A model generated the notes under the pieces. The model did not search any database. It was not told where the DNA came from and saw nothing but the letters and a program-made list of their open reading frames with translations. From Candidatus Limnocylindrales bacterium (GTDB lineage: Bacteria > Chloroflexota > Limnocylindria > Limnocylindrales > CSP1-4): 64,000 nt of DNA. The position numbers and the translations under genes were made by a program. Below, in pieces: positions 7,454-43,231 of this stretch. Within the stretch, counting starts at the first letter, position 1. Each line of letters starts with the position of its first letter. The stretch spans positions 80,877 to 144,876 of the forward strand of contig JBKKDM010000177.1 in NCBI GenBank assembly GCA_046707905.1, in the 5' to 3' direction.

Positions 7454-7493
7454 GCCTTCATGTTGGTCCTGTTCGTAAGTTATGTCAAGTTCG

Positions 7494-15873: not shown

Positions 15874-15877
15874 TCGA

Positions 15878-18825: not shown

Positions 18826-19191
18826 GTGGGCGAGAAGCTCGACTGGACGATCATCGTGCAGGCCGTCAACGGGCCGCAAATGAAATCGACGGCCTCGGCC
18901 GACGTTGATGCCTACGACAAGTTCACCTTCACTGTGCCGGCCGGCGGATCAGTCGACGTCGAGCTTGGCCCTGGGGGCTCCGCCGTCAGCTGTCTGGTCG
19001 CCATTCCGGCCCAAGGAGCGACCGGGGTCACGTACAAGGTCGGGACGAACGACGTCAAGCTCGACGCCCCGCTGGTCCTGCTCGGCGGCGCCGTTGCGCT
19101 CTCCGGGAGCCCGACCTCGCTGACCTTCGACAACGCGGACGCTGCTGATGCGTCCGTGGAGATCCTCATCGGCCGAAAGGCCGCCACCTAG
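18826..19191 (+). CDS. Hypothetical beta-rich protein, first gene of the eCIS operon
   Basis: GTG start preceded by a perfect AGGAGG RBS. 121 aa. No similarity to the clear tube protein at 20798. Confidence 0.5.
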   Translation: MGEKLDWTIIVQAVNGPQMKSTASADVDAYDKFTFTVPAGGSVDVELGPGGSAVSCLVAIPAQGATGVTYKVGTNDVKLDAPLVLLGGAVALSGSPTSLTFDNADAADASVEILIGRKAAT

Positions 19192-19231
19192 GCGTTCGGC
19201 GCGTCGAGAGCTCAGTACTGCGAGGAACAAC

Positions 19232-20785
19232 ATGGCCCTGACCTTGGCTCACCCGGGTGTCTACATCGTCGAGAAGCCGAGTGGTGTTCGGACGATCACC
19301 GGGGTCGCAACCTCGATTACCGCGTTTATCGGCCGCGCCCTCCGGGGCCCCGCCGATCGGCCGCGCCTGGTCCAGAGCTTTGCCGAGTTCGATCGCGTCT
19401 ATGGCGGACTGTGGGCCGAAAGCACCCTCGGCTACTCCGTATCGCAGTTCTTTTCCAACGGCGGTCGCGATGCCCTCATCTGCCGTGTCCACAACGGCGC
19501 GATCGCGGCCTCGCTGACCGTTGGTGGCAATCTCGATCTCGTCGCGGCCAGCCCTGGCACGTGGGGCAGCCGGCTGCGCGTCCGGGTGGAGGATGCCCCG
19601 GACCGGCCCAACGAGACCCCTGGGACGCGATTCAATCTCTACGTCAAGGACACGGCGACAATTCAGGTCGAGCGCTTCCTCAACCTCTCTACCGATCCGC
19701 TCAACGCTCGATTCGTGACCGAGATCCTGGCGCAGCAGTCGGAGTTGGTCCGAGTCGACCCCGCCGGGTCTGTCGGGGCAACCCGCCCGACGGCCGATGC
19801 CGCCGCCGTCGTAGGCCAGGACCCACTCGACAGCGCACCGTTCTCCAATCCCTTTCCGACTAACGGCGGAGACGGCAATCCGATCACCGACAATGCCATC
19901 TCAGCGCCTGGGCTCGAGGCCGGACGTCAGGGCCTCTGGATGCTCGAGAACGCCGACCTCTTCAACATTCTCGTCATCCCTCCACTCGAGCGCGACACCG
20001 ATGTCGGCCAGGTCACCTGGGACGCCGCAATCCGCTTCGCGCGCGACCACCGCGCCATGGTGATCGTCGATGCGCCCGCGGCTCTCGGGACGCCCGATCA
20101 GCTGCTCAACGGCATGTCCACGATTGCAACGCCCGACCAGAACGCGGCGCTGTACTACCCGCGCTTCCGGGCCCCGGATCCGCTTGCCGAGAACCGCCTC
20201 GCGACCTTCGCAGCTTCGGGTGCAGTAGCCGGGATCTACGCGCGAACGGACGCCCAGCGCGGCGTCTGGAAGGCGCCCGCCGGGCTGGACGCAACGCTGG
20301 TCGGTGTGTCCGAACTCACGGTCCGGCTGACCGACGGGCAGAACGGCCGCCTGAACCCGCGCGGCGTCAACTGCTTGCGAGTCTTCCCGGTGCATGGCCG
20401 AGTGGTCTGGGGGGCACGGACCCTTCGGGGCGACGACCAGATGGCCTCTGAGTGGAAGTACGTGCCCGTTCGGCGGACGGCACTGTTCATCGAAGAGAGC
20501 CTGTTCCGCGGCACCCAGTGGGTTGTCTTCGAGCCGAACGACGAGCCCCTCTGGGCCCAGATCCGCCTCAACGTCGGCACGTTCATGCAGGACCTCTTCC
20601 GACAGGGCGCCTTCCAGGGCGCCTCGCCACGCGAGGCGTATTTCGTGCGCTGCGACGGGGAGACGACCACGCAGAGCGACATCGATCGCGGGATCGTGAA
20701 TATCCTCGTCGGCTTTGCGCCTCTCAAGCCCGCCGAGTTCGTCGTCATCACGATCCAGCAGATCGCCGGTCAGCCGGCAGCGTAG
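19232..20785 (+). CDS. Contractile tail sheath protein (Afp2-4 / phage sheath family)
   Basis: Start MALTLAHPGVYIVEKPSGVRTITGV is the hallmark sheath N-terminus. GAGGA RBS. 517 aa. Its C-terminal region is also typical of sheath proteins. Confidence 0.9.
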   Translation: MALTLAHPGVYIVEKPSGVRTITGVATSITAFIGRALRGPADRPRLVQSFAEFDRVYGGLWAESTLGYSVSQFFSNGGRDALICRVHNGAIAASLTVGGNLDLVAASPGTWGSRLRVRVEDAPDRPNETPGTRFNLYVKDTATIQVERFLNLSTDPLNARFVTEILAQQSELVRVDPAGSVGATRPTADAAAVVGQDPLDSAPFSNPFPTNGGDGNPITDNAISAPGLEAGRQGLWMLENADLFNILVIPPLERDTDVGQVTWDAAIRFARDHRAMVIVDAPAALGTPDQLLNGMSTIATPDQNAALYYPRFRAPDPLAENRLATFAASGAVAGIYARTDAQRGVWKAPAGLDATLVGVSELTVRLTDGQNGRLNPRGVNCLRVFPVHGRVVWGARTLRGDDQMASEWKYVPVRRTALFIEESLFRGTQWVVFEPNDEPLWAQIRLNVGTFMQDLFRQGAFQGASPREAYFVRCDGETTTQSDIDRGIVNILVGFAPLKPAEFVVITIQQIAGQPAA

Positions 20786-20797
20786 GAGCGTCGACCG

Positions 20798-21322
20798 ATG
20801 GCCCAGTTCACTGTCAACCCTCGCCGATTCGATCCCTACAAGAACTTCAAGTTCCGGGTGAAGTGGGATGGTCGCTACGTCGCGGGCATCTCCAAGGTCG
20901 GCAGCCTCAAGCGTTCCACCGAGGTCGTGGAGCATCGCGAGGGTGGGGACCCATCAACGGGGCGCAAGAGCCCCGGGCGAAACAAGTACGAGCCCATCAC
21001 CCTGGAGCGGGGCGTCACGCACGACGTCGAGTTCGAGAAGTGGGCCAACAAGATCTGGAACTTTGGCTCGGGCCTCGGGATGGAGGTCTCGCTGGCTGAC
21101 TTTCGCAAGGACCTCATCATCGAGGTCTACAACGAGGCGGGCCAGCTTGCCCTCGCGTACAAGGTCTTCAGATGCTGGGTGTCCGAGTTCCAGGCCCTGC
21201 CGGATCTGGACGCCAACGCGAATGCCGTCGCCATCCAGCACGTGAAGCTCGAGAACGAGGGTTGGGAGCGCGACTATGACGTCGCCGAGCCCAAGGAGCC
21301 GCAATTCAGCGAGCCGGCCTGA
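20798..21322 (+). CDS. Tail tube protein (T4 gp19 / Afp1-5 family)
   Basis: MAQFTVNPRRFDPYKNFKFRVKWDGRYVAGISKV is the conserved tube-protein N-terminus. GGAG RBS. Confidence 0.9.
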   Translation: MAQFTVNPRRFDPYKNFKFRVKWDGRYVAGISKVGSLKRSTEVVEHREGGDPSTGRKSPGRNKYEPITLERGVTHDVEFEKWANKIWNFGSGLGMEVSLADFRKDLIIEVYNEAGQLALAYKVFRCWVSEFQALPDLDANANAVAIQHVKLENEGWERDYDVAEPKEPQFSEPA

Positions 21323-21330
21323 GGCCTTCG

Positions 21331-22113
21331 GTGGTCATTGAACGATCGGACGGCCGCACGACGACGCGACTGGACCCGACCAGCCTCGTTGATCTCTGGG
21401 AGACCCACGCACAGCGTGGGGCCCTGCACGCCGGAATCACCGCCCTTGAGCGGGCTGGGAACCGGGACGTTCTCTCACTGACGCTCGGCGATCGCAACGA
21501 GCGACTTCTCACGCTGCGCCAAGCGCACCTCGGGGACGACTTGAACTTGGTGGCGACGTGTCCACATTGCGGGGTGGATGTGGAGGCAACGGTTTCCTGC
21601 GATCAGCTCATCGCCGCGGGTTCAGAGGATGACGCCACGGATCGCGATGGTGCCAAGGCCGAGCGCGGGTCATGGGACCTCACCCTCGATGGCTACCGGA
21701 TCAGGATGCGGCCCCTCCGGGTTGCCGCTGAGGTCGGTGCGGTCGCCGCTGACGATCTCGAGTCCGCTCGGGCCGTTCTGATCACGGCCGCCGTGACCGA
21801 GGCTTTCCGGGAAGCAGACGTCGTCGAGCCCACCCAGCTTCCTGAGGCGGTCGTTGTCGCCGCCGGCGATTCCGTGCTGCAGGCGGATCGACTCGCGGAG
21901 GTCGAACTCCAAATCATGTGCCCTGAGTGCTCGAGGTCGTGGCCAGCGAGCCTGGACGTTTCGCGCTTGGTGCCCGAGGAGCTGTCACGTCTCGGGGCCG
22001 AACTCTTGGGTGATGTCGACCTACTTGCACGCACGTACGGGTGGACCGAGGCAGCCGTTCTGGCACTGCCAGCGGCGCGGCGCGCGACCTATGTCGCCCT
22101 TGCGAGCGGCTGA
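21331..22113 (+). CDS. eCIS-associated hypothetical protein with two CxxC motifs
   Basis: CPHCG and CPECS about 108 aa apart (a possible zinc ribbon). Sits between the tube and DUF4255 genes. Possible assembly or tape-measure-associated factor. Confidence 0.5.
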   Translation: MVIERSDGRTTTRLDPTSLVDLWETHAQRGALHAGITALERAGNRDVLSLTLGDRNERLLTLRQAHLGDDLNLVATCPHCGVDVEATVSCDQLIAAGSEDDATDRDGAKAERGSWDLTLDGYRIRMRPLRVAAEVGAVAADDLESARAVLITAAVTEAFREADVVEPTQLPEAVVVAAGDSVLQADRLAEVELQIMCPECSRSWPASLDVSRLVPEELSRLGAELLGDVDLLARTYGWTEAAVLALPAARRATYVALASG

Positions 22114-22829
22114 TGCTCCGGAACGACCTCTTCACGCGACTCGCGACCGGCAGTCGAGGGCCGGGCGCGCTCCGGCTCCGCCCACGCCCAACGTGGCGGA
22201 CGTTCGGAGATGGTCTCGATTCTGAGCTGGAAGCGGGAACGCCCACCGTGGGAGATCGCGCGGCCATGACAGCCATACGATCATCAGCACGCGGGATGAC
22301 CCGCGACCGCATCGACGAATTCGCTCGTCAATCCCGGCCTCAGAGCCCCCGTACCCTAGCCCACGAAGCGTCTACCGATCTTGCTGCGCCCGTCCTGGTA
22401 CAGGGCGGCCGTCTGGCTGCAGCGGTTGCCGCCCCGAAACCGTCAGTCACGCCGGCGTCTGTCGCGGCCGAGGACGCGTCGTCCGCGGTCGATTTCGAGT
22501 CCGCCTCGACCGCGCCCGCCTCGGAGCCGAGCGCGGAGATCGACAGCATCCGAAAGGGCGCCGCGCCTGACCTCGAAGGTCAACAAGGACCCAGCCTCGA
22601 TACCTTCGCCGTCGTCCGTCCCCGGGCCGGTGTCAATCGCCGACGAGGGTCTGATCCCACGCGAATGGCATCCGAACCGGCCCCCGTCCCCGACGTCGTC
22701 GTCCAGATCGGCAGGATCGAGGTCCGAGCCGCGGTCGTGGCTGCACCACGCCGCGAGCCAGCGAGCCGACCACGGCCCCGGCTCTCGCTCGATCAGTACC
22801 TCAACGACCGTCACGGTTCGGCCGGATGA
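22113..22829 (+). CDS. Ala/Pro/Ser-rich hypothetical protein (candidate tape-measure / length-determinator-like)
   Basis: Start ATG overlaps the upstream stop (TGATG). Low-complexity extended composition with a more conserved-looking C-terminus (VVQIGRIEVRA...LSLDQYLNDRHG). The tape-measure assignment is a guess. Confidence 0.45.
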   Translation: MLRNDLFTRLATGSRGPGALRLRPRPTWRTFGDGLDSELEAGTPTVGDRAAMTAIRSSARGMTRDRIDEFARQSRPQSPRTLAHEASTDLAAPVLVQGGRLAAAVAAPKPSVTPASVAAEDASSAVDFESASTAPASEPSAEIDSIRKGAAPDLEGQQGPSLDTFAVVRPRAGVNRRRGSDPTRMASEPAPVPDVVVQIGRIEVRAAVVAAPRREPASRPRPRLSLDQYLNDRHGSAG

Positions 22830-24094
22830 GCACCGCCCTCGCCGTCGCTGGCGTCACCGCCGTCCTGCGCGGTGTGCTTGACGCCTGGCTGGTCGATCAG
22901 AACGCGGCCACGGCCCTCGGGGGTGCGAACCCGGAGGTGAGCGCTGTGGCCCCGGACACGATCGAGCTTACCGGCGCCAACGCGGCACCGCGGCTGAATC
23001 TCTTTCTCCATCACGTCTCACGAAACGCGGGCTGGAGCAACGAGGACCTGCCATCCCGGAACGGCTCCGGAGAGCGGAACGCCAGCCCGGCACTCGCGCT
23101 CGATCTGCACTACCTGTTGACCGCCTACGGACCTGCTGAGCTCCAGGCAGAAGTCCTGCTCGGCATGGGGATGCAGCGCCTTCACATGAGCCCGGTGCTG
23201 GGGCGCTCCGACATCGAGGCGCGCCTGCCGGTCCGTCTTCGAGGTTCCGCACTCGGTCGCCAGGTCGAAATGATCAAGGTGACCCCAGAGCCCATCGGCA
23301 TCGAGGAGCTGTCCAAGTTGTGGACGGCGTTGCAGGCCCACTACCGCCCATCAGCGGGGTACCAGGTTTCAGTCGTCCTGATCGAGGCCCCGCAGACCGG
23401 CCGTGCCCCCAAACCGGTCCTTTCCCGCGGCGCTGCTGATCCCATCTCTGGCCGAGAGCGCGGCGTCGTGACCATTGCCGGGGTTGGGCCGGTCATGCCG
23501 CTCGTTTCGTCGATCGAGGGCTCGACCGGGCACGCGACAGCGACGCTCGGGGCGGTTGTCGAGATCGCCGGCGTCAACCTTCAGGGCGTCGGCCGAACCG
23601 CCATCCTCGAGAATCGACTACTCGGCATCCGGCGCGAGGTGGCCGCGGCCGCGAACACCTCGGACGATACCGTCCGTTTCACGATCCCCACCGCCCCCGC
23701 ACAGCTGGCGGCCGGGATCTACACGGTGCGAGTCAGGCTTACGCCGCCAGGTGCCTCCGGGCCATGTGAAACGAACGAGCTCGCCCTCTCACTCCTGCCT
23801 GAAATCCTTTCCACCAATAGCCCAGTGACGGCGAATGGCCAGGGCGTAGCCCAGATCGACCTCGTGGTCCGGCCCCAGGTCAGGCCGTTCCAGGACGCAG
23901 CATTGCTGATCGGTGGTCGTTCGATCCCGGCCGAGCCGCATCCCACGGCGACGGCGAGCCTGCGATTCCGCGTGCCGGGCGCCGTCGCCGATACCTACCT
24001 GGTCGCCCTGCGTGTCGCCGGCATGGAGACGCCGAGGATCGACCGTAACGCTACCCCAGTGGCCTTTGCCGGAACCCCGGTGGTGATCACGTGA
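22826..24094 (+). CDS. DUF4255-domain protein (Afp16/Pvc16-like tail terminator/cap)
   Basis: N-terminus MSTALAVAGVTAVLRGVLDAWL fits the DUF4255 N-terminal helix pattern. ATGA overlap with the upstream gene. Sits just before the AAA ATPase, as in type-II eCIS gene order. Confidence 0.65.
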   Translation: MSTALAVAGVTAVLRGVLDAWLVDQNAATALGGANPEVSAVAPDTIELTGANAAPRLNLFLHHVSRNAGWSNEDLPSRNGSGERNASPALALDLHYLLTAYGPAELQAEVLLGMGMQRLHMSPVLGRSDIEARLPVRLRGSALGRQVEMIKVTPEPIGIEELSKLWTALQAHYRPSAGYQVSVVLIEAPQTGRAPKPVLSRGAADPISGRERGVVTIAGVGPVMPLVSSIEGSTGHATATLGAVVEIAGVNLQGVGRTAILENRLLGIRREVAAAANTSDDTVRFTIPTAPAQLAAGIYTVRVRLTPPGASGPCETNELALSLLPEILSTNSPVTANGQGVAQIDLVVRPQVRPFQDAALLIGGRSIPAEPHPTATASLRFRVPGAVADTYLVALRVAGMETPRIDRNATPVAFAGTPVVIT

Positions 24095-26016
24095 TTGAGG
24101 AGGCAATCCGGGAGGCCGTCCCGTGGCTGGACGCCAATCAGAGTTATCTCGCGGCGCACCTCGCGCGCGTCGCGGCGTTGCTCGATCGGGCGAGCGCCCT
24201 GCCTGGGGCAGACGCGACGCTCGCCGACGCCCAGGCCGCGGTCGACCACGCGGGAGCTGAGGTCGTCGAGCCCGCGCTCGATCGGATCGTGCGTCTCTTT
24301 GGGCTGACCGACTTCGAGCGCGACACCCTCCTTCTCTGCGCGGGTGTTGAGCTCGACGCGGGGATCGCTCGCCGGTGCGCAGGAATCGCCGGCGGACCGT
24401 GGGGGACCTTCGGGACTGCGCTGGGGAGCTTCCAGGGAGCGCACTGGAGCGCGCTGCTGCCCCATTCCCCCCTCCGCGGATTTCGGCTCGTCGAGCCGGC
24501 GACGGTGGATTCGATCGTCACGGCGCCTCTCCGCGCCGCAGAGCCGGTGATCCATGCCCTGGCCGGATTGGAAACGCTCGATGGGGAGCTTGCGCCGCTC
24601 CTCACTCGCGCGATCCCGGCCCCACTAGCGGCCCCCTCGCAGAGCGCCGTCGCAGAGCAGCTCTCCGGCTGGCTCGTCGACTCGTCGTCCGGCCGATTCC
24701 AACTTGTCGGCGATGACGCAGAGGGCCAGCGGGACGTGGCCGCAGGGGCGTTGGCGCGGATCGGTCGGGGCCTCTGGACGCTCCCCGCGTCCGAGATCCC
24801 TCGAGACGTCGCCATCCGTCAGGCCTTCGCCTCGACGTGGAGCCGAGACGCCGCGCTGCTCGGCGCCGCCTTGCTCATCACGCGTGCGGAAGAACATGCC
24901 GACGCTGCCGTGGACTTCGCGCTCCGGATCTCGGGCATTGTTGGGTTCGCATCCGTGCATCGCCTTCCAATGCCCCCTGGCGCCGGCACGTGGCCAGTCG
25001 CGCTGCCAGAGCCCATCGAGCAGCGCAACCTGTGGCGTCAGGCCGTGTCCGAGGACGTCCTCGATGACGAGAGCCTCGGTGTCGTCTCGAGTCAGTTTCG
25101 CCTTTCGGCTTCCGGAATCGAGCGCGCCGCGCTCGAGCTGGTTGCGGTTGGGATCTCGGGCAGAGCAGCTCTCCGCGCCATTCGCCCCGCCACCGACAGC
25201 GACGCTGTCGGCGAGCTCGCCACCTGGATTGAACCGCGGGCCGACTGGGACCAGCTCGTCTTGCCGATGGACCAGATCGACGTTCTTCGGGAGATCGTGG
25301 ACCAAGTGCGCGGGCGGACGACCGTACACGACGCTTGGGCGTTTCGGGCCCGTGCGGGGGATGGCCTGGGGATCGCGGCCCTCTTTGAAGGAGACAGCGG
25401 GACTGGGAAGTCCCTGGCGGCGGAGGTGGTGGCGACGGCGCTCGGGTTGCCCGTATTGCGAGTCGACCTGGCGGGCGTCGTGAGCAAGTACATCGGTGAG
25501 ACCGAGAAGAACGTCAGCCGCATCTTCGCGGTGGCCGAGGGCAGCGGCGCGGTGATCCTCTTCGACGAGGCGGAGGCCCTCTTCGGCAAGCGCACCGAGG
25601 TCAAGGACAGCCACGACCGCTACGCGAACATCGAGGTCGCGTATCTCTTGCAGCGGGTCGAGGCGTATCGCGGGCTCGCGATCCTGACCTCGAACGCCCG
25701 ATCGTCGATCGACAAGGCATTCCTTCGGCGGCTGCGGTTCGTGGTCAAGTTCCCGTTTCCCGACCAGTCCCACCGCGAGCGCATCTGGCGTGCGGCGTTT
25801 CCCACCGCCGCGCCGACCAGGGGCATCGATTACCGCAGCCTGTCGCGACTTCCATTGGCGGGTGGTGACATCCGAAACATCGCGCTCGGTGCGGCATTCC
25901 GGGCAGCTGCCGCCGGGGAGCCTATCCGGATGGTCCACATCCGGGCCGCCACGAGAAGAGAGCTCGAAAAGCTTGGCCGATCGCCATCTGACGCGGACGT
26001 CGAGGCCCGCCGATGA
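24091..26016 (+). CDS. AAA+ ATPase (Afp15/Pvc15-like eCIS assembly ATPase)
   Basis: Walker A GDSGTGKS, Walker B ILFDEAE, sensor/arginine region SNARSSIDKAFLRRLRF. A long unique N-terminal region precedes it. GTGA overlap start. Confidence 0.9.
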   Translation: MIEEAIREAVPWLDANQSYLAAHLARVAALLDRASALPGADATLADAQAAVDHAGAEVVEPALDRIVRLFGLTDFERDTLLLCAGVELDAGIARRCAGIAGGPWGTFGTALGSFQGAHWSALLPHSPLRGFRLVEPATVDSIVTAPLRAAEPVIHALAGLETLDGELAPLLTRAIPAPLAAPSQSAVAEQLSGWLVDSSSGRFQLVGDDAEGQRDVAAGALARIGRGLWTLPASEIPRDVAIRQAFASTWSRDAALLGAALLITRAEEHADAAVDFALRISGIVGFASVHRLPMPPGAGTWPVALPEPIEQRNLWRQAVSEDVLDDESLGVVSSQFRLSASGIERAALELVAVGISGRAALRAIRPATDSDAVGELATWIEPRADWDQLVLPMDQIDVLREIVDQVRGRTTVHDAWAFRARAGDGLGIAALFEGDSGTGKSLAAEVVATALGLPVLRVDLAGVVSKYIGETEKNVSRIFAVAEGSGAVILFDEAEALFGKRTEVKDSHDRYANIEVAYLLQRVEAYRGLAILTSNARSSIDKAFLRRLRFVVKFPFPDQSHRERIWRAAFPTAAPTRGIDYRSLSRLPLAGGDIRNIALGAAFRAAAAGEPIRMVHIRAATRRELEKLGRSPSDADVEARR

Positions 26017-26249
26017 GACGCCTGACCATTGCCGTGGACACCCTTGTGGTCGAAGGCCTGGCGGACCTCGACCCCCGCGCACTCGAGCGTGCGTTCACGC
26101 AGCGCGTCGGCGAGCTGTTGGAGGCGGGAGCACTCGAGAATCTCGGTCGCGCGGGTCGCCTGGCCGTCGATCCGATCTCGACCGGTGACGCGCGGGCGGC
26201 CACCATCGGCGGCGCTATCGCGGAATCCTTGTCGAGGGCCGCGCAGTGA
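26013..26249 (+). CDS. Small hypothetical protein (78 aa) between the ATPase and the first DUF4157 protein
   Basis: ATGA overlap at both ends. Possible adaptor or chaperone. Confidence 0.4.
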   Translation: MRRLTIAVDTLVVEGLADLDPRALERAFTQRVGELLEAGALENLGRAGRLAVDPISTGDARAATIGGAIAESLSRAAQ

Positions 26250-29073: not shown

Positions 29074-29077
29074 GACC

Positions 29078-31771: not shown

Positions 31772-31773
31772 CG

Positions 31774-32094: not shown

Positions 32095-32096
32095 CG

Positions 32097-35077: not shown

Positions 35078-35079
35078 CC

Positions 35080-37896: not shown

Positions 37897-40037
37897 TCCT
37901 CGACGGCGCGCGCCTCCTCGAGTTGCTGCCGGCAGTATACCGCATTCGGGACGTCGAGCTCGCCAGCCTGCTCGGTGAGCTCCTGACCGCCACGCAGCGC
38001 GCCGAGCTCACAACACTTGAAGGTCAGATCGGCGTACTTGACACGGCCGGCCTGGAGCGTCTCGACGAGCTTCGGGACCAAGCGCAGCGCGGTCCCCTCG
38101 CGGCGCTCCTGAGCATCATTGGCGAGCAGCTCGCCGTCCTTGATGACGATGTGCAGACCCTCTACGACGATCAGTTCGTCGAGACGGCCTCCGCGTGGGC
38201 GCTTCCGTACGTCGGCGACCTGATCGGCTATCGATCCCTGCATGGAAAAGCGCCCGGGCTCACGGCCCGGGCCGAGATCGGGCACACCATCGCCTTCCGC
38301 CGACGCAAGGGCACGGCCTCGATGTTGGAGCAGCTGGCCCGCGACGTGACCGGCTGGGAGGCGCGAGTCGTCGAGTCATTCGCCCTCCTGGCGACCACGC
38401 AGTACATGAACCACTGCCGGCTGGCCAATCGCGTGACGCCCGAGCTGCGGCAGGGTGGCGCCAGGGAACTGGTCGCGACGGCATTCGATCCATTCCCTCG
38501 AACCCTCGATGTGCGGCGCGTTGGCGGGGCTCGCGGCCGCCACAACATTCCCAATGTCGGCATCCACCTGTGGCGGCTTCGCGCCCTCGCGCGCCAGCGG
38601 ATCCCGGTCACGCCCGACCTGACCGACGCCGCGGGCGCACGCTTCTGGGTGGACCAACTTGGCACCGATGTCGCGATGTGGACGCTGCCACAGCGAGAGG
38701 ACGTGATCGAGCACCTAGCAGAGCCGATCAACGTCCCGATACCGATCTCTCGCCGACGCCTAGAAGCGGATCTAGCAAGTGCCCAGGCCGAGCTCTATGG
38801 CGAGGGACGGAGCGTGGCCATTTACGTCAACGGTGTGCTCGAGCCGCTGGCGACCGTGGCGGTTTGCCACCTTGGAGACACGCCGACGGGGTGGGCTCAT
38901 GACGCACCCGCCGGCAAGATCGCGGTCGACCCGGAGCTGGGCCGCATCGCCGTGGCCGCTGACCGCTTGCCACTCCCGGGCCCGCTCACGACCACCTTCC
39001 ATCGGGGCGGCCCGGATGCAGTAGGGGGCGGAGATTACGACCGGTCGCGTTCGTTCACCCCCGCCGCCGCAGGCGTGCCCCTAGTTGGGGTGCCGGACGA
39101 CATCGCCACGGTGCAGGGAGCGATTGATGCGGTCACCGCATTGGGCGGCGGCGTTGTCGAGATCCGGGACAGCCGCCGCTACCCGGAGGCGCTGGCGATC
39201 GACCTGCCCGCGAACGCCACGTTGGAGGTCCGCGCCGCCAATCTGGGCCGCCCGCTGATCGAGCTTCCGACGCCCTGGACGATCCGCGGTGCTCCAGGTA
39301 GCCGGGTCAGCTTGAACGGCTTGCTCGTGACCGGCGACCGTCTCGTGGTTCGCGGGGCGGCCAACCGGTTGGGTGCCTTGACCATCGCGCATTGCGCCCT
39401 CGTGCCCGGTCGCACCCTGACGCACACCGGCGAGCCGGTGACGCCCGGGGCGTCGAGTGTCGGGATCGGGATTCCTGGCGTCGACCTGACCATCTGCGCC
39501 TCGCTGGTCGGGGCCGTACGCGTCCACAACGGATCGAGTGCTCGTGTTGACGGATCGATGCTCGATGCCGGTATCGGCGGGGTCGCCTATGCCGCCTCCG
39601 ACACCGCACCCGGCGACCCGGGCGGCGCCCTCGACATTGAGTCGAGCACGGTGCTGGGACATGTTCGAGTCGACCGGCTGGACGCCTCCAATTCGCTGCT
39701 GTTCGGCACCACGACCGCCGTCCGGACGCAGGACGGTTGCCTGCGTTTCAGCTACGTCGACCCCAGTTCGGTCACTCCCCGCCGGTATCGCTGCCAGCCG
39801 GAGACAGGCCCGGGGGACATCAACGTCCCCCATTTCGAGACCTTGCTCTTCAACGCGCCCGGCTACGGCCGTCTCGCGGGCGGGACGCCTGCCGGCATCG
39901 CGCGGGGATCGGAGGACGAGTCGGAGATCGGCATCTTCCGGCGCCGCTATGAGCCGCAACGCCATGCAGACCTGCAGATCCGATTGGACGAATACCTACG
40001 CGTCGGTCTCGACGCTGGCGTAATCCACGAGTCGTGA
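37893..40037 (+). CDS. P2 gpI-like baseplate / fibre-attachment protein
   Basis: N-terminus MILDGARLLELLPAVYRIRDVELASLLGELL resembles the phage tail protein I (LLP...D) N-terminal motif. ATGA overlap. 714 aa. Confidence 0.55.
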   Translation: MILDGARLLELLPAVYRIRDVELASLLGELLTATQRAELTTLEGQIGVLDTAGLERLDELRDQAQRGPLAALLSIIGEQLAVLDDDVQTLYDDQFVETASAWALPYVGDLIGYRSLHGKAPGLTARAEIGHTIAFRRRKGTASMLEQLARDVTGWEARVVESFALLATTQYMNHCRLANRVTPELRQGGARELVATAFDPFPRTLDVRRVGGARGRHNIPNVGIHLWRLRALARQRIPVTPDLTDAAGARFWVDQLGTDVAMWTLPQREDVIEHLAEPINVPIPISRRRLEADLASAQAELYGEGRSVAIYVNGVLEPLATVAVCHLGDTPTGWAHDAPAGKIAVDPELGRIAVAADRLPLPGPLTTTFHRGGPDAVGGGDYDRSRSFTPAAAGVPLVGVPDDIATVQGAIDAVTALGGGVVEIRDSRRYPEALAIDLPANATLEVRAANLGRPLIELPTPWTIRGAPGSRVSLNGLLVTGDRLVVRGAANRLGALTIAHCALVPGRTLTHTGEPVTPGASSVGIGIPGVDLTICASLVGAVRVHNGSSARVDGSMLDAGIGGVAYAASDTAPGDPGGALDIESSTVLGHVRVDRLDASNSLLFGTTTAVRTQDGCLRFSYVDPSSVTPRRYRCQPETGPGDINVPHFETLLFNAPGYGRLAGGTPAGIARGSEDESEIGIFRRRYEPQRHADLQIRLDEYLRVGLDAGVIHES

Positions 40038-40056
40038 CGGAACGAGAGGGACCAAG

Positions 40057-43000
40057 ATGAGCGCCGATTACAGCCGCTGGCCCGTCAGGACACGAGACTT
40101 CACCCAGGTTCGGCTCCAACAAGGGCGAGTTCTCACGGATGCGGACTGGAACGAGCAGGCCCTCGTCGCGGAGCGACGCGAGCGGTTCGAGACGATGGAT
40201 GGGCTGGGGCGGGCAGTCGTCCCGACGGCGTCTGCGAACGCCTTCGCGATCACGGTCTCGGGCTCCGACCTTTCGATCGGCGTTGGCCGAGCTTACGTCG
40301 ACGGCCTCCTGGTCGAGAACTACGGCACCCCTGGCGCCTTCGATCCGATCACAGCCGAGCGGATGCCGAGCGGGCCGGTGCTCTATTCAACCCAGCCGTG
40401 GCTCCGCAACCCCCCGAACCTGCCGGCTGCCCCGTACGCCGCATACCTCAAGGCTTGGCAGCGAGAGCGAACAGCCGTCGAGGAACCCAGCCTCATCGAA
40501 CAGGCCCTCGGCGTCGACACCGCGGCCAGACTCCAGACGGTCTGGCAGATCAAGACCGTTTCGACCGGGCCGGCCGCGACGTGCGATGACCTCGATGCGC
40601 TGATCGCGGCGGCAGAGCCAGCGGCCGCCGGGCGGCTTACCAACGGGACCGCGGTCGTTCCGGGCCAGCCGGATCCCTGCCGGGTGGTGCCGGGGGGCGG
40701 CTACACGGGGCTCGAGAATCAGCTTTATCGCGTCGAAATCCACCGCGGCGGCGTCGTCGGTGGGGCGGGAGGTGCAACGTTCAAGTGGTCGCGCGACAAC
40801 GCAACCGTATCGGCGCGCGTCGAATCCATCGGGCAGGCCCGAAATCGCCTGGTGGTCGACTCGCTCGGACCGGACGACGTTCTCTCGTTCCACGATGGCG
40901 ACTGGGTTGAGATCCTCGACGACGATCACGAGCTCGGCGCGCTGCCTGGTGAGCTTCGTCAGATCCAGATCGGCGGGGGAATCGACAAGGCCAGTCGAAC
41001 CATCGTGCTGACCGACGCACTCCCGTCCGCCGCGCAGGCCTTCCCGGTCGACGCCCAGCTCCGAACCCTGCCCGATCGCAACACGCGAATCCGCCGCTGG
41101 GACCAGGCAGGCAAGGTCCTGAACTCTGGCGGGGGAACGGTCACAGACCTCGATGCCGCCAACGCCACCGGCGCAATCCTCGTCCCGGCGTCGAACGTCT
41201 CGGTTCTGCTCGAGCACGGGATCGTGGTCCGCTTCTCCACCGAGGGCCAGGGCCGCTTCCGAACGGGCGACTTCTGGCTCTTTGCCGCGCGGACGGCCGA
41301 TGCCAGCGTGGAGGTCCTGGCGGCCGCACCGCCGCTCGGCGTCCACGCGCATTACGCCCCTCTCGCAATCATCGGGCCCAATCCCAGCGACTGCCGCACG
41401 ATCGTCCCGCCTTTGGCCGAGATGGACACGCTCCACTACCTCGGCGGCGACGGGCAGGAGGCCACCCCGTCCTACCTCCAGCCGGCTCCCATCACGCTTC
41501 CGGTCCCGATCGCGGTTGGCGTCAGCCGTGGCAGCCTCCCGGTGGCAGGCCGCACGGTCCGTTTCACCATCGTCGACTTCCCGAACGCGGGCTCGTTGCC
41601 CGGCGCCGCTCAGGGAACGGTCGAGATCGATACGCCGGTGAACGGCATCATCAGTTTGGTCTGGACGCTCGGGTGGGATGGTCGCGAGAGCCAGAAGAAG
41701 CAGGAAGTGGTGGCCGAGCTCCTCGATGGGGTTGGCCAACCGATAGGGCTGCCGATTCGCTTCTCGGCCCGGCTTCGGACCGCCGACCTGGTCGCCTACG
41801 ATCCCGCCGCGTGTGCCGATCTCGCCGGTGCCGGAACCGTGCAGCAAGCGCTGGATGCACTGTGCGGACGCGACCCGGGCGAGGGCTGCTGCCTCATCGT
41901 GCGGCCGGGTGACCGGCTGCCAGCCGCGATCGAGGAGGCGGCCGCGCGCGGGAAGGGACACGCGTGTCTGTGCCTGACGCCCGGCGTCTATGAGCTGTCC
42001 GAGGACGACTCGAACCAGGTGCGGGAAATCCTCGGGCAGGTGCTGACGCTCACCATCGGCGGTCGCGGCGCACAGATCCTTCTCGGCGCTCCACTCGTCA
42101 TCGAGGGCCTCCAGGCTCTCGATATCCGCGAAGTCCAGATCGCCAACGCGACCGAACAGCTCGACGTCGTGCTCGACATCGTCGGCTGCGGCTCCGTCAC
42201 GCTCGACGGCATCGAAGCCAATCTGACCAATGGCTCCGAGGATTCTCGGGTCGTTCGGATGGCCAGCCCGGAAGCTGGGGAAGCCCCGCCCGCCATCAGG
42301 ATTCGGAACTGCACCATCCAACACGGGAAGCGCGTTCGACGGTTCCCTCGTGAGGAGATCGTCGGGGAGCTTCCCGCGACCATCCGGGCGATGGTCCTCA
42401 TGGCTCGCTCCGAATCGCCGGCCGGCGACACGGTGAGTGAATTCCGAAACCTGATGGACCAGCCCGAGGAGCGCCGTGTCGCTGACGCGGACATGCTCGA
42501 CGCTCTTGCGACTGAGCATCGCGACTTGCTCGATGTCACGACGAATCGTGCCATCAACCGTCTTAGCTCGACGGTCCGTGAAGGCCGCAGCCTGCCGCTC
42601 TCCCGCCTGACGACGCTCCTGGATCGAGCGCGCCTCGTCGGCGACCGCTTTATCCGTGAGTTCGACGCCGGGACGGCCGTGGAGATCGTCGACGGCCGAA
42701 GCGACGTCTGGCTCGATAGCAACCAGCTGCGCGGCAAGGTCATGGTCTATGGCTCCGGCGCACGCCCGGACGCTGAAGCCCGGTTGCAGGAGGTTCTGGA
42801 GGGCATCGACTGGTTCGGGATTGAACCCGGTGCCATGCAGGTTCTTCCGCCCGGGGTCGCAGGACTCCGGCTTTCGAAGAACACGCTGGCTCGTATCACG
42901 ATCGGCGGAGATGGCGTCGAGGCGTTCCTCCGCTTCCTGGAGACGCGCGAGTTTCCGGACGGGCTGCTGTTCGACTCTGTCGTGCTCGACGGCAACGACA

Positions 43001-43215
43001 TGTCCGACCCTCGCCAGGCCGTCCTCGGCCAGCTGGTCTCGCTCGCATCGAACACGATCGGCGGTGGACGAGGCGCCTCAATGGGCTTTGCCTGTGGCAA
43101 CGTCGCGACCATGAGCGGAAACATCGGGACGAATGGCGAATTCCTGCTGGCGGCCTGGGAGAGCGCCGAAGCCGCCAACCGCCGCATGAAGATCCATCCC
43201 GGAACCCATCCGTGA
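40057..43215 (+). CDS. Large tail-fibre / receptor-binding-like protein
   Basis: 1052 aa. N-terminal motif VRLQQGRVLTDADWNEQ, recalled (not checked) as recurrent in eCIS-associated fibre-like proteins. Gly-rich beta-rich body. Last structural gene before cargo. Confidence 0.5.
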   Translation: MSADYSRWPVRTRDFTQVRLQQGRVLTDADWNEQALVAERRERFETMDGLGRAVVPTASANAFAITVSGSDLSIGVGRAYVDGLLVENYGTPGAFDPITAERMPSGPVLYSTQPWLRNPPNLPAAPYAAYLKAWQRERTAVEEPSLIEQALGVDTAARLQTVWQIKTVSTGPAATCDDLDALIAAAEPAAAGRLTNGTAVVPGQPDPCRVVPGGGYTGLENQLYRVEIHRGGVVGGAGGATFKWSRDNATVSARVESIGQARNRLVVDSLGPDDVLSFHDGDWVEILDDDHELGALPGELRQIQIGGGIDKASRTIVLTDALPSAAQAFPVDAQLRTLPDRNTRIRRWDQAGKVLNSGGGTVTDLDAANATGAILVPASNVSVLLEHGIVVRFSTEGQGRFRTGDFWLFAARTADASVEVLAAAPPLGVHAHYAPLAIIGPNPSDCRTIVPPLAEMDTLHYLGGDGQEATPSYLQPAPITLPVPIAVGVSRGSLPVAGRTVRFTIVDFPNAGSLPGAAQGTVEIDTPVNGIISLVWTLGWDGRESQKKQEVVAELLDGVGQPIGLPIRFSARLRTADLVAYDPAACADLAGAGTVQQALDALCGRDPGEGCCLIVRPGDRLPAAIEEAAARGKGHACLCLTPGVYELSEDDSNQVREILGQVLTLTIGGRGAQILLGAPLVIEGLQALDIREVQIANATEQLDVVLDIVGCGSVTLDGIEANLTNGSEDSRVVRMASPEAGEAPPAIRIRNCTIQHGKRVRRFPREEIVGELPATIRAMVLMARSESPAGDTVSEFRNLMDQPEERRVADADMLDALATEHRDLLDVTTNRAINRLSSTVREGRSLPLSRLTTLLDRARLVGDRFIREFDAGTAVEIVDGRSDVWLDSNQLRGKVMVYGSGARPDAEARLQEVLEGIDWFGIEPGAMQVLPPGVAGLRLSKNTLARITIGGDGVEAFLRFLETREFPDGLLFDSVVLDGNDMSDPRQAVLGQLVSLASNTIGGGRGASMGFACGNVATMSGNIGTNGEFLLAAWESAEAANRRMKIHPGTHP

Positions 43216-43231
43216 GTCTGATGTAAGGGCG

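What the first reader, a model, noticed from the sequence alone, without database searches (positions are those of the whole stretch)
18826..43215. Complete type-II-order eCIS operon with tight translational coupling and several unassigned components
The gene order runs sheath, tube, two unknowns, DUF4255 cap-like, AAA+ ATPase and a small ORF. It continues with [cargo], a tube-like protein, LysM, gpD, gpV, PAAR-like, gp25, two baseplate-J proteins, gpI-like and fibre. This matches actinobacterial and cyanobacterial eCIS layouts, with cap and ATPase before baseplate, rather than the Afp/PVC order. Nearly every junction is an ATGA/GTGA/TGATG overlap. No protein is recognisable as a tape measure. 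The Ala/Pro-rich 22113..22829 product and the CxxC protein 21331..22113 are the only candidates. The first gene (18826, perfect AGGAGG RBS) and the 29078 product have no assignable family.
Basis: partly seen in the sequence, partly recalled or inferred. Interest (0 to 1): 0.6.

Follow-up and report, generated by a model that had tools for sequence, protein, structure and literature searches.

The report
Phage-tail-like injection system operon
This is a real, essentially complete operon for a phage-tail-like protein-injection machine of an already catalogued kind (eCIS lineage II), probably from a soil Chloroflexota-like bacterium; its main toxin gene is broken by a one-base deletion.

Summary
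The operon is real. The same order occurs in actinobacterial, Chloroflexota and proteobacterial relatives. The closest is a Candidatus Limnocylindrales MAG (sheath 90% identical).

Corrections:
- The operon runs 18565..44764, not 18826..43215. An unannotated conserved 82-aa ORF precedes the "first gene", and a second DUF4157 gene follows the fibre.
- 11 of 20 junctions are overlaps, not nearly all.
- The CxxC protein is a T4 gp26/gp51-like hub-assembly protein, not a tape measure.
- The 29078 product is a tube-initiator-like protein.
- The "[cargo]" is one about 941-aa Tme-like DUF4157 polymorphic toxin, split by a 1-nt deletion.

No tape measure is recognisable, which is a published general feature of lineage II. 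The Ala/Pro-rich protein belongs to a conserved family (fixed termini, disordered middle, 224-479 aa). It sits where P2 encodes its tape measure and is the best ruler candidate, untested.

Verdict: a new member of a known kind, of modest interest.

The parts
17635..18450 (+). BTAD (SARP-like) transcriptional activator, probable pathway regulator
   Evidence: Pfam BTAD 1.4e-25. It keeps the same position upstream of the operon in L007, L009, L010 and L011 at 63-76% identity, and a BTAD gene also flanks the Streptomyces plasmid locus.
18565..18813 (+). g0: conserved 82-aa ORF of unknown function, not annotated in this contig; true first gene of the operon
   Evidence: It is 71% identical in amino acids to the L007 orthologue, with nucleotide differences by codon position of 15/14/50. 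The antisense frame has stops in L007. It is called as a gene in L009 (89 aa) and L010 (74 aa) and aligned. It has no Pfam or PHROG family.
18826..19191 (+). g1: 121-aa all-beta jelly-roll protein of unknown role, restricted to this subclade
   Evidence: It has an AGGAGG ribosome-binding site, a codon score of +60 and GC3 of 0.85, like sheath and tube. Only 10 relatives were found, all seen directly upstream of a sheath gene where context was fetched. The AF2 model has pLDDT 81.5. PDB fold hits are only generic cupin or jelly-roll matches with TM 0.45-0.5 and include no CIS entry.
19232..20785 (+). Contractile sheath (Cis2/Afp2-4 equivalent)
   Evidence: Pfam Phage_sheath_1 and Phage_sheath_1C. 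The best PDB sequence matches are 9ezm (haloarchaeal CIS) at 2e-71 and 8bky (S. coelicolor CIS) at 2e-70.
20798..21322 (+). Inner tube (T4 gp19 family)
   Evidence: Pfam Phage_T4_gp19 6.8e-45. Its 90%-identity cluster has 912 members spanning several phyla.
21331..22113 (+). T4 gp26/gp51-like baseplate-hub assembly protein with two CxxC pairs (probable Zn site)
   Evidence: Pfam T4_baseplate 1.1e-5, above the gathering score, and phrog_150 'baseplate hub'. The four Cys are invariant in the six-locus alignment and the homologue alignment. The AF2 model has pLDDT 90.3. It has no PDB fold match. Against BFVD it gives full-length matches down to E 8e-9, with TM 0.4-0.6, to proteins named hub assembly protein, gp26 hub subunit or hub assembly catalyst.
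22113..22829 (+). Ala/Pro-rich conserved protein (AlaPro family): best candidate for the ruler or lumen component, function untested
   Evidence: It starts with a TGATG overlap. It is present between the gp26-like gene and the cap in all nine loci whose fetched DNA reaches that position. The N-terminal motif is L..LA.R.LG..P.LR (the PSRFEP extension appears only in the actinobacterial loci L003-L005). The C-terminal motif is V.V.IGR[IVL][ED][VL]RA...SL.[EDQ]YL, aligned in 26 sequences. Family members are 224-312 aa and up to 479 aa. It has no Pfam, PHROG or PDB family.
22826..24094 (+). Cap / tail terminator (Pvc16_N, formerly DUF4255) with a roughly 220-aa C-terminal extension
   Evidence: Pfam Pvc16_N 3.8e-44 over residues 10-199. 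The extension has no family.
24091..26016 (+). AAA+ ATPase (Afp15/Cis15 equivalent)
   Evidence: Pfam AAA 2.2e-20 and WHD 3.1e-9.
26013..26249 (+). Conserved 78-aa protein of unknown function that follows the ATPase
   Evidence: It has ATGA overlaps at both ends and a codon score of +28. An ORF of 78-127 aa holds the same position in L002-L005, L007, L009 and L011. It has no family.
26246..29073 (+). Tme-like DUF4157 polymorphic-toxin cargo, about 941 aa if read through, interrupted by a 1-nt deletion near 27945-27950 (ORF1 26246..28066; second frame open from 27934, ATG at 28063)
   Evidence: Pfam eCIS_core 5.2e-13. The coding signal switches frame before ORF1's stop. Single-ORF homologues of 995-1200 aa run continuously across the junction. 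L007 has one intact 996-aa ORF, and the DNA alignment shows the missing base. Hydrophobic Gly/Ala-rich segments lie at residues 478-514 and 619-638. The C-terminal domain varies among homologues (PF14427 deaminase, PF14412 AHH).
29078..29734 (+). Tube-initiator-like protein (P2 gpU / Afp5-Cis1b position)
   Evidence: Pfam CIS_tube 5.8e-4, below threshold. A profile hit to 9rce_H scores 7e-4. It is 54-83% identical in all relatives.
29731..30099 (+). LysM-like tail protein X homologue
   Evidence: Weak PHROG hub and wedge hits. The positional orthologue in the Streptomyces plasmid is named 'tail protein X' by PGAP. It has no Pfam hit.
30096..31244 (+). gpD-like hub protein (assigned by position and size)
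   Evidence: It is 382 aa and lies between the X-like and V genes, as in P2 and R-pyocin (established gene order). Only a weak phrog_52 'tail protein' hit at 0.004 and no Pfam hit. It is 43-88% identical in relatives.
31241..31771 (+). Spike (gpV / gp5 OB-fold)
   Evidence: Pfam Phage_base_V 3.4e-17.
31774..32094 (+). PAAR-like spike tip
   Evidence: Pfam DUF4280 at 0.0034, below threshold. It sits between spike and gp25 and is conserved in relatives.
32097..32462 (+). gp25-like sheath initiator
   Evidence: Pfam GPW_gp25 5.1e-15. The start was refined. It matches PDB chain 9gtp_V.
32459..35077 (+). Baseplate_J protein 1 (gp6/Afp11-like)
   Evidence: Pfam Baseplate_J 2.7e-9. A concatenated-query PDB hit to the Baseplate_J chain 9gtp_1K of S. 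coelicolor CIS spans the two Baseplate_J proteins and cannot be assigned to one of them.
35080..37896 (+). Baseplate_J protein 2
   Evidence: Pfam Baseplate_J 1.8e-8.
37893..40037 (+). gpI / Mu gp48-like wedge protein with a large C-terminal extension
   Evidence: Pfam Phage_Mu_Gp48 at 0.017, far below threshold. Its position after the J genes is conserved in L007, the Xanthomonas locus L008 and the Streptomyces plasmid. It has no PDB sequence match.
40057..43215 (+). Tail fibre with a DUF6519 (eBAP5) baseplate anchor
   Evidence: Pfam DUF6519 6.6e-41. DUF6519 is defined as eCIS fibre anchor eBAP5 in PMC12923769. The C-terminal 570 aa have no family.
43232..44764 (+). Second DUF4157 cargo-type protein; last gene of the + strand operon
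   Evidence: Pfam eCIS_core 6.8e-18. A 16-nt gap separates it from the fibre gene. The next ORFs are on the minus strand.
52071..57756 (+). Satellite cargo genes: DUF4157+M14-like+VanY (52071..54350), an uncharacterised ORF with no Pfam family (54510..55283), DUF4157 (55343..57139), HEAT-repeat immunity-like protein (57136..57756)
   Evidence: Pfam results.

Best explanation
The region encodes a contractile injection system of eCIS lineage II, most like subtype IIa and the 'Tme-harbouring' group described for Streptomyces davawensis. The host is probably a Limnocylindria-like Chloroflexota or a neighbouring soil lineage.

Shown: a single + strand operon of 22 genes, 18565..44764, sits downstream of a BTAD activator gene. 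It carries every core part:
- sheath, gp19 tube, Pvc16_N cap and AAA+ ATPase;
- tube initiator, protein X, gpD-like hub, gpV spike, PAAR-like tip and gp25;
- two Baseplate_J proteins, a gpI-like wedge protein and a DUF6519 fibre.

The gene order is a rotation of the P2/R-pyocin tail order: FI FII E T | cap ATPase cargo | U X D V W J I H.

Inferred mechanism:
- The hub (D, V, PAAR, U, X) assembles with help from the gp26/gp51-like CxxC protein.
- Wedges made of gp25, the two J proteins and the I-like protein join the hub.
- Tube and sheath polymerise and are closed by the cap.
- The ATPase and DUF4157 domains serve cargo loading.
- The DUF6519 fibre binds a target, contraction drives the spike, and DUF4157 effectors are delivered.

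Because one satellite cargo carries M14 and VanY peptidoglycan-peptidase domains, the likeliest targets are other bacteria.

The in-operon cargo is a Tme-like polymorphic toxin: DUF4157, a helical region, a Gly/Ala-rich hydrophobic region, a Pro/Ala/Thr/Ser-rich linker and a variable C-terminal domain. In this genome a 1-nt deletion splits it, so it is probably inactive or separated from its loading domain.

No classical tape measure exists. The conserved Ala/Pro-rich protein at the P2 gpT position is the most likely length-setting or lumen component. This step is inference only.
For: -
- Conserved synteny is seen in nine related loci from Actinomycetota, Chloroflexota- and Acidobacteriota-named MAGs and Proteobacteria.
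- The closest solved sheaths are the haloarchaeal clade IIa CIS and the S. coelicolor CIS.
- Chen et al. 2019 state that subtypes IIa/IIc have two afp11 copies, that afp14 is generally absent from lineage II, and that lineage II carries subtype-specific genes of unknown function.
- In S. davawensis the sheath is BN159_7569, the tube 7570 and Tme 7576. That leaves five genes between tube and Tme, as here. Tme lies directly upstream of the baseplate genes.
- The gp26/gp51 relation of the CxxC protein rests.
- The frameshift rests.
- Full-length homologues carry deaminase or AHH nuclease C-termini.
- The role of DUF6519 as a fibre anchor is from PMC12923769.
Against: - The mode of action is not shown. 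The two best-studied lineage-II systems act cytoplasmically or as membrane-anchored T6SS-like machines, and no lysis cassette was recognised in the window.
- The host phylum is inferred only from the nearest locus. The tube cluster spans phyla at 90% identity or more, so horizontal transfer makes that inference weak.
- gpD-like, X-like, PAAR-like and gpI-like assignments rest on position plus sub-threshold hits.
- The frameshift could be a sequencing error. The two assemblies that carry it appear to derive from the same run.
- Nothing links the Ala/Pro-rich protein to length control except position and architecture.
Confidence: 0.8

Rival explanations
1. The machine is not released. It acts inside the producer (cytoplasmic CIS that mediates stress-induced cell death, as in Streptomyces coelicolor) or is anchored to the cytoplasmic membrane and fires outward (T6SS-like, as in Halogeometricum).
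For: The best solved sheath matches are exactly these two systems (PMC10066040, PMC12237407, PMC11566945). No holin or endolysin was recognised among the flanking ORFs scanned. The ISME J 2026 paper on Chloroflexota CIS found cytoplasmic particles, although that system is lineage IId.
Against: This locus encodes a 1052-aa DUF6519 fibre and a 714-aa wedge extension, which CIS-Sc lacks. No CisA-like or Hbor_38620-like multi-pass membrane anchor was noticed in the operon. A peptidoglycan-peptidase cargo fits attack from outside.
Confidence: 0.35
2. The Tme-like DUF4157 protein itself is the tape measure of this system. On this view it is a phage TMP derivative that fills the tube lumen, sets length and is ejected as the effector.
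For: Nagakubo et al. 2024 propose this for S. davawensis Tme. Their grounds are its position directly upstream of the baseplate genes, coiled-coil and transmembrane segments, and binding to the spike and tube initiator. Here the position, the DUF4157 domain, the helical region and the Gly/Ala-rich hydrophobic segments agree. If fully helical at about 1.5 A per residue, 941 aa would span about 140 nm (own arithmetic).
Against: The gene is optional at this site. It is absent between the ATPase-associated small ORF and the tube initiator in L009, a close relative (sheath 85% identical), and in L003-L005. In Xanthomonas it lies after the fibre gene. It is frameshifted here while all structural genes are intact. 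No PHROG tape-measure profile matches it. Its C-terminus is polymorphic, as in cargo toxins.
Confidence: 0.15
3. The locus is a defective prophage tail or an R-type tailocin rather than a cargo-injecting CIS.
For: The gene order is a rotation of the P2/pyocin tail module, and several genes hit phage families.
Against: A Pvc16_N cap, a dedicated AAA+ ATPase and four DUF4157 proteins are hallmarks that separate eCIS loci from phage tails (PMC10020575). No capsid, portal, terminase or integrase family was hit among the ORFs scanned with Pfam. A tblastn search of one AlaPro C-terminal motif against the phage collection found nothing.
Confidence: 0.03

Closest known systems
Streptomyces davawensis CIS and the 'Tme-harbouring' CIS group (Nagakubo et al. 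2024, PMC11126660)
   Same: Both have sheath, tube and five genes before a DUF4157 protein that lies directly upstream of tube initiator, spike, PAAR-like tip and baseplate genes. Both have fibre-type genes at the end. Both groups are spread across Actinobacteria, Proteobacteria and Chloroflexota.
   Different: Tme is over 2000 aa, is the largest ORF of its cluster and ends in an EndA-like nuclease. The protein here is about 941 aa, is not the largest ORF, ends in a different small domain and is frameshifted. Direct sequence comparison with BN159 proteins was not possible with the tools.
Streptomyces coelicolor CIS-Sc / S. lividans SLP (lineage IId; PDB 8bky, 9gtp)
   Same: Both are lineage II with a related sheath (2e-70), gp25 and Baseplate_J, a Pvc16_N cap, an ATPase, no Afp14-type tape measure and associated DUF4157 proteins.
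   Different: CIS-Sc has one afp11-type gene per locus (two copies per wedge), no fibre, the CisA membrane adaptor and a cytoplasmic mode of action. Its tube did not match this gp19-type tube at E<=0.01.
Halogeometricum borinquense CIS (clade IIa, T6SS-like; PDB 9ezm)
   Same: It gives the best solved sheath match (2e-71). It has two Cis11 genes, DUF4157 proteins in the cluster and no cis14 tape measure.
   Different: It is archaeal and membrane-anchored through a six-TM protein, and its structural genes are split by an 8.7-kb spacer.
Afp / PVC (lineage I eCIS)
   Same: The same machine parts are present: sheath, tube, cap, ATPase, spike, gp25, gp6-like protein, fibre and cargo.
   Different: The order differs, with cap and ATPase at the end. 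Afp/PVC have three sheath paralogues, a recognisable Afp14/Pvc14 tape measure and adenovirus-like fibres with eBAP1 anchors.
Phage P2 tail / R-type pyocin
   Same: The gene order FI FII (E T) ... U X D and V W J I H is preserved as a rotation. Protein X, V, W and J families are recognisable.
   Different: This locus adds a Pvc16_N cap, an AAA+ ATPase and DUF4157 cargo, and has no helical tape measure of about 800 aa. The E/T positions are held by a gp26-like protein and a disordered Pro/Ala-rich protein.

Membership tests
eCIS superfamily (Chen 2019; Geller 2021; Vladimirov 2023 definition) | Pvc16_N (DUF4255) tail terminator encoded in the locus | tested here: met
   Pfam Pvc16_N 3.8e-44, 151 bits against a cutoff of 27.
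eCIS superfamily | Dedicated AAA+ ATPase in the locus | tested here: met
   Pfam AAA 2.2e-20, with a GTGA overlap to the cap gene.
eCIS superfamily | Contractile sheath, tube, spike, gp25 and Baseplate_J genes clustered together | tested here: met
   All pass the Pfam gathering scores.
eCIS superfamily | Particles released from the cell that inject cargo into a target | not testable with these tools
   This needs EM and activity assays. Only a fibre gene (DUF6519) argues for it.
eCIS lineage II, subtype IIa/IIc (Chen 2019) | Two afp11 (Baseplate_J) copies | tested here: met
   32459..35077 and 35080..37896 both hit Baseplate_J.
eCIS lineage II, subtype IIa/IIc | No Afp14-type tape measure; PAAR-like gene present | tested here: met
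   No tape-measure family was hit in Pfam, PHROGs, NCBIfam or PDB. The PAAR-like DUF4280 hit at 0.0034 is sub-threshold.
eCIS lineage II, subtype IIa/IIc | Placement in the lineage II clade of an Afp11 or sheath phylogeny | not tested
   No tree was built. The only indirect support is that the best solved sheath relatives belong to lineage II.
Tme-like (tape-measure-related) DUF4157 effectors (Nagakubo 2024) | N-terminal DUF4157 / eCIS_core domain | tested here: met
   Pfam eCIS_core 5.2e-13 at residues 67-140.
Tme-like DUF4157 effectors | Gene immediately upstream of the baseplate/spike genes, with conserved synteny | tested here: met
   A 4-nt gap separates it from the tube-initiator gene. 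The locus-tag count matches S. davawensis.
Tme-like DUF4157 effectors | Largest ORF of the cluster | tested here: not met
   It is about 941 aa if read through, against 1052 aa for the DUF6519 fibre. As it stands it is 606 aa plus 336-367 aa.
Tme-like DUF4157 effectors | Remote homology to phage tape measure proteins | tested here: not met
   A PHROG scan at E<=1 returned only three unknown-function families and no tape-measure family. More sensitive HHpred-type profile comparison was not available.
Tme-like DUF4157 effectors | Coiled-coil and multiple transmembrane segments | tested here: inconclusive
   Kyte-Doolittle peaks lie at residues 478-514 and 619-638 within a Gly/Ala-rich region spanning 451-700. 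No dedicated TM or coiled-coil predictor was run.
T4 gp26/gp51 baseplate-hub assembly family (Pfam PF12322) - CxxC protein | Sequence match above the Pfam gathering score | tested here: met
   25.7 bits against a cutoff of 24.5, E 1.1e-5. Homologues carry precomputed PF12322 hits.
T4 gp26/gp51 baseplate-hub assembly family - CxxC protein | Same fold as phage family members | tested here: met
   The AF2 model has pLDDT 90.3. Foldseek against BFVD gives 46 hits at E<=1e-3, the best at 8e-9 with TM 0.5-0.6, many of them named hub assembly protein, gp26 or hub assembly catalyst.
Tape measure protein - Ala/Pro-rich protein | Gene between the tube/chaperone genes and the terminator/hub genes | tested here: met
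   It lies at the position of P2 gpT, between the gp26-like gene and the cap, in all nine loci whose fetched DNA reaches that position.
Tape measure protein - Ala/Pro-rich protein | Long alpha-helical or coiled-coil protein homologous to known TMP families | tested here: not met
   It has no TMP family hit. The middle is Pro/Ala/Ser/Thr-rich and not conserved. A tblastn search of the C-terminal motif against phages found nothing.
Tape measure protein - Ala/Pro-rich protein | Protein length proportional to particle length; located in the tube lumen | not testable with these tools
   Family lengths range from 224 to 479 aa, but no particle lengths are known.
eBAP5 / DUF6519 eCIS tail fibres (PMC12923769) | DUF6519 domain at the N-terminus of a gene just downstream of the baseplate genes | tested here: met
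   Pfam DUF6519 6.6e-41. The gene follows the gpI-like gene after a 19-nt gap.

The most novel reading that the evidence does not exclude
The Ala/Pro-rich family may be the missing length-determining or lumen protein of lineage-II contractile injection systems. The family has a conserved N-terminal L..LA.R.LG..P.LR motif and a conserved C-terminal V.V.IGRxExRA...SLxxYL motif. Between them lies an unconserved, disordered Pro/Ala-rich middle of about 130-370 residues. On this reading it is a non-helical, intrinsically disordered 'ruler' anchored at the hub and the cap and assembled with the adjacent gp26/gp51-like chaperone. That would explain how systems that are reported to have no tape measure gene still make particles of uniform length, as shown for Streptomyces CIS-Sc.
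Probability: 0.2. Interest if true: 0.7.

Novelty: new member of a known kind. Interest (0 to 1): 0.3.

Why it matters
As a whole the locus is one more lineage-II contractile injection system of a group that has already been catalogued and partly characterised. Its value lies in the details.

- It comes from a little-studied, uncultured soil lineage.
- It gives clean definitions of four conserved but unnamed components: g0, g1, the Ala/Pro-rich protein and the post-ATPase small protein.
- It assigns the CxxC protein to the T4 gp26/gp51 hub-assembly family.
- It shows that the Tme-like DUF4157 toxin is dispensable at its site, which argues against it being the universal ruler.

How lineage-II systems set their length is an open question in the field: CIS-Sc particles are uniform at 268 nm and no tape measure gene is known. 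The Ala/Pro-rich family offers a concrete, testable candidate in tractable Streptomyces relatives.

Tried and rejected
- Concatenated unknown proteins against PDB sequences gave nothing usable.
- Profiles of the CxxC, Ala/Pro-rich and 714-aa families against PDB sequences gave no real hits.
- NCBIfam gave nothing for any unassigned product.
- I suspected that the N-terminus of the post-ATPase small protein (R.I.V.ID.LvL.G) is homologous to the C-terminal motif of the Ala/Pro-rich family. An HMM of 26 C-termini recovered every Ala/Pro orthologue (E 1e-14 to 1e-26; 2e-6 for the contig-truncated L010 copy). It did not recover the small-protein family above noise, so I rejected the idea.
- A tblastn search of the Ala/Pro C-terminal motif against 50,697 phage genomes found no match.
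- A PHROG scan of the read-through DUF4157 protein for tape-measure similarity found none.
- My impression that the C-terminal parts of the 714-aa protein and the DUF6519 fibre are beta-helices got no Pfam support here. Only a faint Beta_helix hit exists in the Xanthomonas orthologue. I make no such claim.
- Promoter and terminator scans around the operon ends were uninformative.
- Rfam found only a tRNA.
- A programmed -1 frameshift at the cargo junction was considered. No X XXY YYZ heptamer and no long homopolymer lies in the overlap, so a simple deletion is the better reading.
- The genome-contig scan with the cap protein found only four distant relatives. The close relatives came from exact-protein look-ups instead.

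Full report
**What is in the sequence**

The window has 63-71% G+C. The + strand between about 18.5 and 44.8 kb carries an uninterrupted chain of ORFs.

Pfam assigns the following:
- sheath, 19232..20785
- T4 gp19-type tube, 20798..21322
- T4_baseplate, just above the gathering score, for the CxxC protein, 21331..22113
- Pvc16_N, formerly DUF4255, for the 422-aa cap, 22826..24094
- AAA plus WHD, 24091..26016
- eCIS_core/DUF4157, 26246..
- CIS_tube, sub-threshold, for 29078..29734
- Phage_base_V, 31241..31771
- DUF4280/PAAR-like, sub-threshold, 31774..32094
- GPW_gp25, 32097..32462
- two Baseplate_J proteins, 32459..35077 and 35080..37896
- DUF6519, 40057..43215

A codon-usage log-likelihood trained on the assigned genes shows that every unassigned ORF is coding in its own frame.

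**Junctions**

With refined starts, 11 of 20 junctions are overlaps: ten ATGA/GTGA and one TGATG. Five more are gaps of 2-8 nt and four are gaps of 12-40 nt. The longer gaps precede the sheath, tube, fibre and last cargo genes. Three of these four genes (sheath, tube and fibre), like g1, have a visible Shine-Dalgarno sequence. Translational coupling is real but was overstated.

**Boundaries**

The 375-nt 'intergenic' stretch upstream of 18826 is about 80% identical to the corresponding stretch of the closest relative, and the mismatches fall every third base. It encodes an 82-aa protein, g0, at 18565..18813.
- Against the orthologue, 57 of 80 residues are identical.
- Nucleotide differences by codon position are 15/14/50.
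- The antisense reading has stops in the relative.
- g0 is present in all five loci of the subclade and is called as a gene in two of them.

Downstream, a second DUF4157 gene (43232..44764) follows the fibre after 16 nt, and the next ORFs are on the other strand. The operon is therefore 18565..44764. A BTAD regulator gene lies just upstream, at the same place in all close relatives.

**Relatives and host**

The exact proteins occur on a Logan contig of run SRR31159422 and on an unnamed 163-kb NCBI contig.

The closest locus is in a Candidatus Limnocylindrales MAG, L007. Identities are sheath 90%, tube 93%, gpD-like 88%, g1 78% and BTAD 76%. Three further metagenomic loci (L009-L011) share the full layout.

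More distant loci with the same order come from Streptosporangiaceae, Mycolicibacterium, an Actinomycetota MAG and a Rubrivivax MAG. A Streptomyces europaeiscabiei plasmid has the same parts with the baseplate module inverted.

The tube's 90%-identity cluster has 912 members, including Pseudomonadota, Binatia and Ancylobacter. The system is therefore widely shared across phyla, and the host assignment (Chloroflexota-like) is tentative.

**Classification**

The best solved sheath matches are the haloarchaeal clade IIa CIS (9ezm, 2e-71) and S. coelicolor CIS (8bky, 2e-70). Afp, PVC, AlgoCIS and the Anabaena tCIS are far weaker.

Chen et al. 2019 report three relevant points:
- Subtypes IIa and IIc carry two afp11 copies.
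- afp14 is generally absent from lineage II.
- Lineage II has subtype-specific conserved genes without known domains.

All three points fit this locus. DUF6519 has been defined as fibre anchor eBAP5, correlated with Actinobacteriota.

The layout also matches the S. davawensis 'Tme-harbouring' group. There the sheath is BN159_7569, the tube 7570 and the DUF4157 effector Tme 7576, directly upstream of tube initiator, spike and tip. That leaves five genes between tube and Tme, as here.

**The unassigned components**

1. The CxxC protein
   - Four Cys and a YGW(T/S)E...RR..Y tail are invariant.
   - The AF2 model is confident, with pLDDT 90.3 and pTM 0.86.
   - It has no match among solved structures.
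   - It matches predicted structures of myovirus proteins full-length. Many are named 'baseplate hub assembly protein, T4-like', 'gp26 hub subunit' or 'hub assembly catalyst', with E down to 8e-9 and TM 0.4-0.6.
   - Together with the Pfam hit, this makes it a gp26/gp51-family hub-assembly protein and not a tape measure.

2. The Ala/Pro-rich protein
   - It is a member of a conserved family present between the gp26-like gene and the cap in every locus whose fetched DNA reaches that position.
   - The family has a conserved N-terminal motif and a strongly conserved C-terminal motif, V.V.IGR[IVL][ED][VL]RA...SL.[EDQ]YL..R.
   - Between the motifs lies an unconserved Pro/Ala/Ser/Thr-rich middle.
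   - Lengths are 224-312 aa in an exhaustive search and 479 aa in the Streptomyces plasmid.
   - It has no family in Pfam, PHROGs, NCBIfam or PDB.

3. g1
   - It is a 121-aa all-beta jelly-roll, with pLDDT 81.5 and only generic fold hits.
   - Only ten relatives were found.
   - It has a strong ribosome-binding site and a GC3 like sheath and tube.
   - This is compatible with an abundant structural or accessory protein, but its role is unknown.

4. The 78-aa protein
   - It follows the ATPase, is positionally conserved in all relatives and has no family.

5. The 29078 product
   - It is tube-initiator-like.

6. The 122-aa product
   - It corresponds to PGAP's 'tail protein X' in the Streptomyces plasmid.

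7. The 714-aa product
   - It has a faint Mu gp48 (P2 gpI) signal.

Read against P2 and R-pyocin, the operon is FI FII [gp26-like][Ala/Pro] | cap ATPase small cargo | U X D V PAAR W J J I H.

**The cargo**

ORF 26246..28066 (606 aa) and the next ORF overlap by about 100 nt. The coding signal switches frame well before the first stop. Over 27976..28062 the first frame scores -13.4 and the second frame +6.1.

A read-through translation of 941 aa finds single-ORF homologues of 995-1200 aa that run continuously across the junction, with consensus EGFMAGAGGAAARVLGPALGVGG. L007 has one intact 996-aa ORF. The DNA alignment shows one base missing in the window near 27945-27950. No slippery heptamer or long homopolymer is present.

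The family architecture, in order, is:
- DUF4157
- a conserved helical region
- a Gly/Ala-rich hydrophobic region
- a Pro/Ala/Thr/Ser linker
- a variable C-terminal domain, which is a deaminase or an AHH nuclease in some members

This is a polymorphic toxin of the Tme type. The window's C-terminal domain also lacks about 21 residues that are present in three homologues.

The gene is absent from this site in L009 and in three actinobacterial loci. In Xanthomonas it sits after the fibre gene. It is therefore accessory cargo rather than an obligatory structural ruler.

Two further DUF4157 genes lie at 52071..54350 and 55343..57139. The first carries M14-like and VanY peptidase domains. The second is followed by a HEAT-repeat protein with an ATGA overlap.

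**Tape measure**

It is also what the literature says for lineage II and for CIS-Sc, whose particles are nonetheless uniform in length.

Of the three candidates:
- The CxxC protein is excluded.
- The Tme-like protein is optional.
- The Ala/Pro-rich family remains, on the strength of position, universal presence, conserved ends and a variable-length middle. This is inference, and I give it about 0.2.

**Verdict**

The locus is a genuine, structurally complete lineage-II contractile injection system with DUF4157 cargo and a DUF6519 fibre. It is a new member of a known and recently well-described kind. The mode of action (released, cytoplasmic or anchored) cannot be decided from sequence. Interest is modest. 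The most useful leads are the Ala/Pro-rich family and the small conserved genes g0, g1 and the 78-aa protein.

Noticed in passing
It shows strong third-position substitution bias against the Limnocylindrales orthologue and is conserved in five loci. It has no known family.
   Followed up: yes
window about 27945..27950, within 26246..29073: A one-base deletion relative to the intact orthologue splits the Tme-like DUF4157 toxin gene into a 606-aa ORF and a 336-367-aa ORF. An ATG at 28063 overlaps the first ORF's stop as ATGA, so the C-terminal half might still be made without its DUF4157 loading domain.
   Followed up: yes
window about 28900..28960 (C-terminal domain of the cargo): An in-frame loss of about 21 residues relative to three homologues (they read ..NG-TVEIVVSDATINPNKVP..; one distant homologue has VVVVDAK, reminiscent of a PD-(D/E)xK motif). 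This may be decay of the toxin domain.
   Followed up: partly
window 52071..54350, 55343..57139, 57136..57756: Two further DUF4157 proteins lie outside the flagged interval. One has M14/AstE-like and VanY peptidoglycan-peptidase domains. The other is followed, with an ATGA overlap, by a HEAT-repeat protein that looks like an immunity gene. A HisKA_3 kinase and a LuxR-type response regulator (48128..50322) lie between the operon and these genes.
   Followed up: partly
window 43232..44764: The second DUF4157 protein ends in a Gly-rich region of alternating hydrophobic residues that finishes ..GIGVRFQ. This is reminiscent of a beta-barrel membrane domain, but it has no family hit.
   Followed up: no
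window 6260..8180 (-): A RES-domain toxin (7494..8180) lies next to an Xre/MbcA-like plus DUF2188 protein (6260..7453). This looks like a RES-Xre toxin-antitoxin pair.
   Followed up: no
window 9441..9516 (-): tRNA-Gly(CCC) lies about 9 kb upstream of the operon. The operon's G+C (0.67-0.71) is higher than that of the flanks (0.63-0.66). Together these may mark an acquired island, but no integrase was seen.
   Followed up: no
L012 22829..24268 (Streptomyces europaeiscabiei plasmid NZ_CP109155): The Ala/Pro-rich family member here is 479 aa, twice the window's 238 aa, with the same terminal motifs. Only the length of the disordered middle differs. In this plasmid the whole baseplate module is inverted relative to the sheath module.
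   Followed up: partly
window 20798..21322: The tube protein belongs to a 90%-identity cluster of 912 sequences that includes Pseudomonadota, Binatia and Ancylobacter. This is unusually high conservation across phyla and points to recent horizontal spread of this CIS type.
   Followed up: partly
window 13000..17476 (-): An ECF-type sigma factor (13651..14178), a possible anti-sigma partner (13000..13650) and a trypsin-like protease (15878..17476) lie on the opposite strand just upstream of the BTAD gene. Any relation to the operon is unknown, and the arrangement is not conserved in L007.
   Followed up: no
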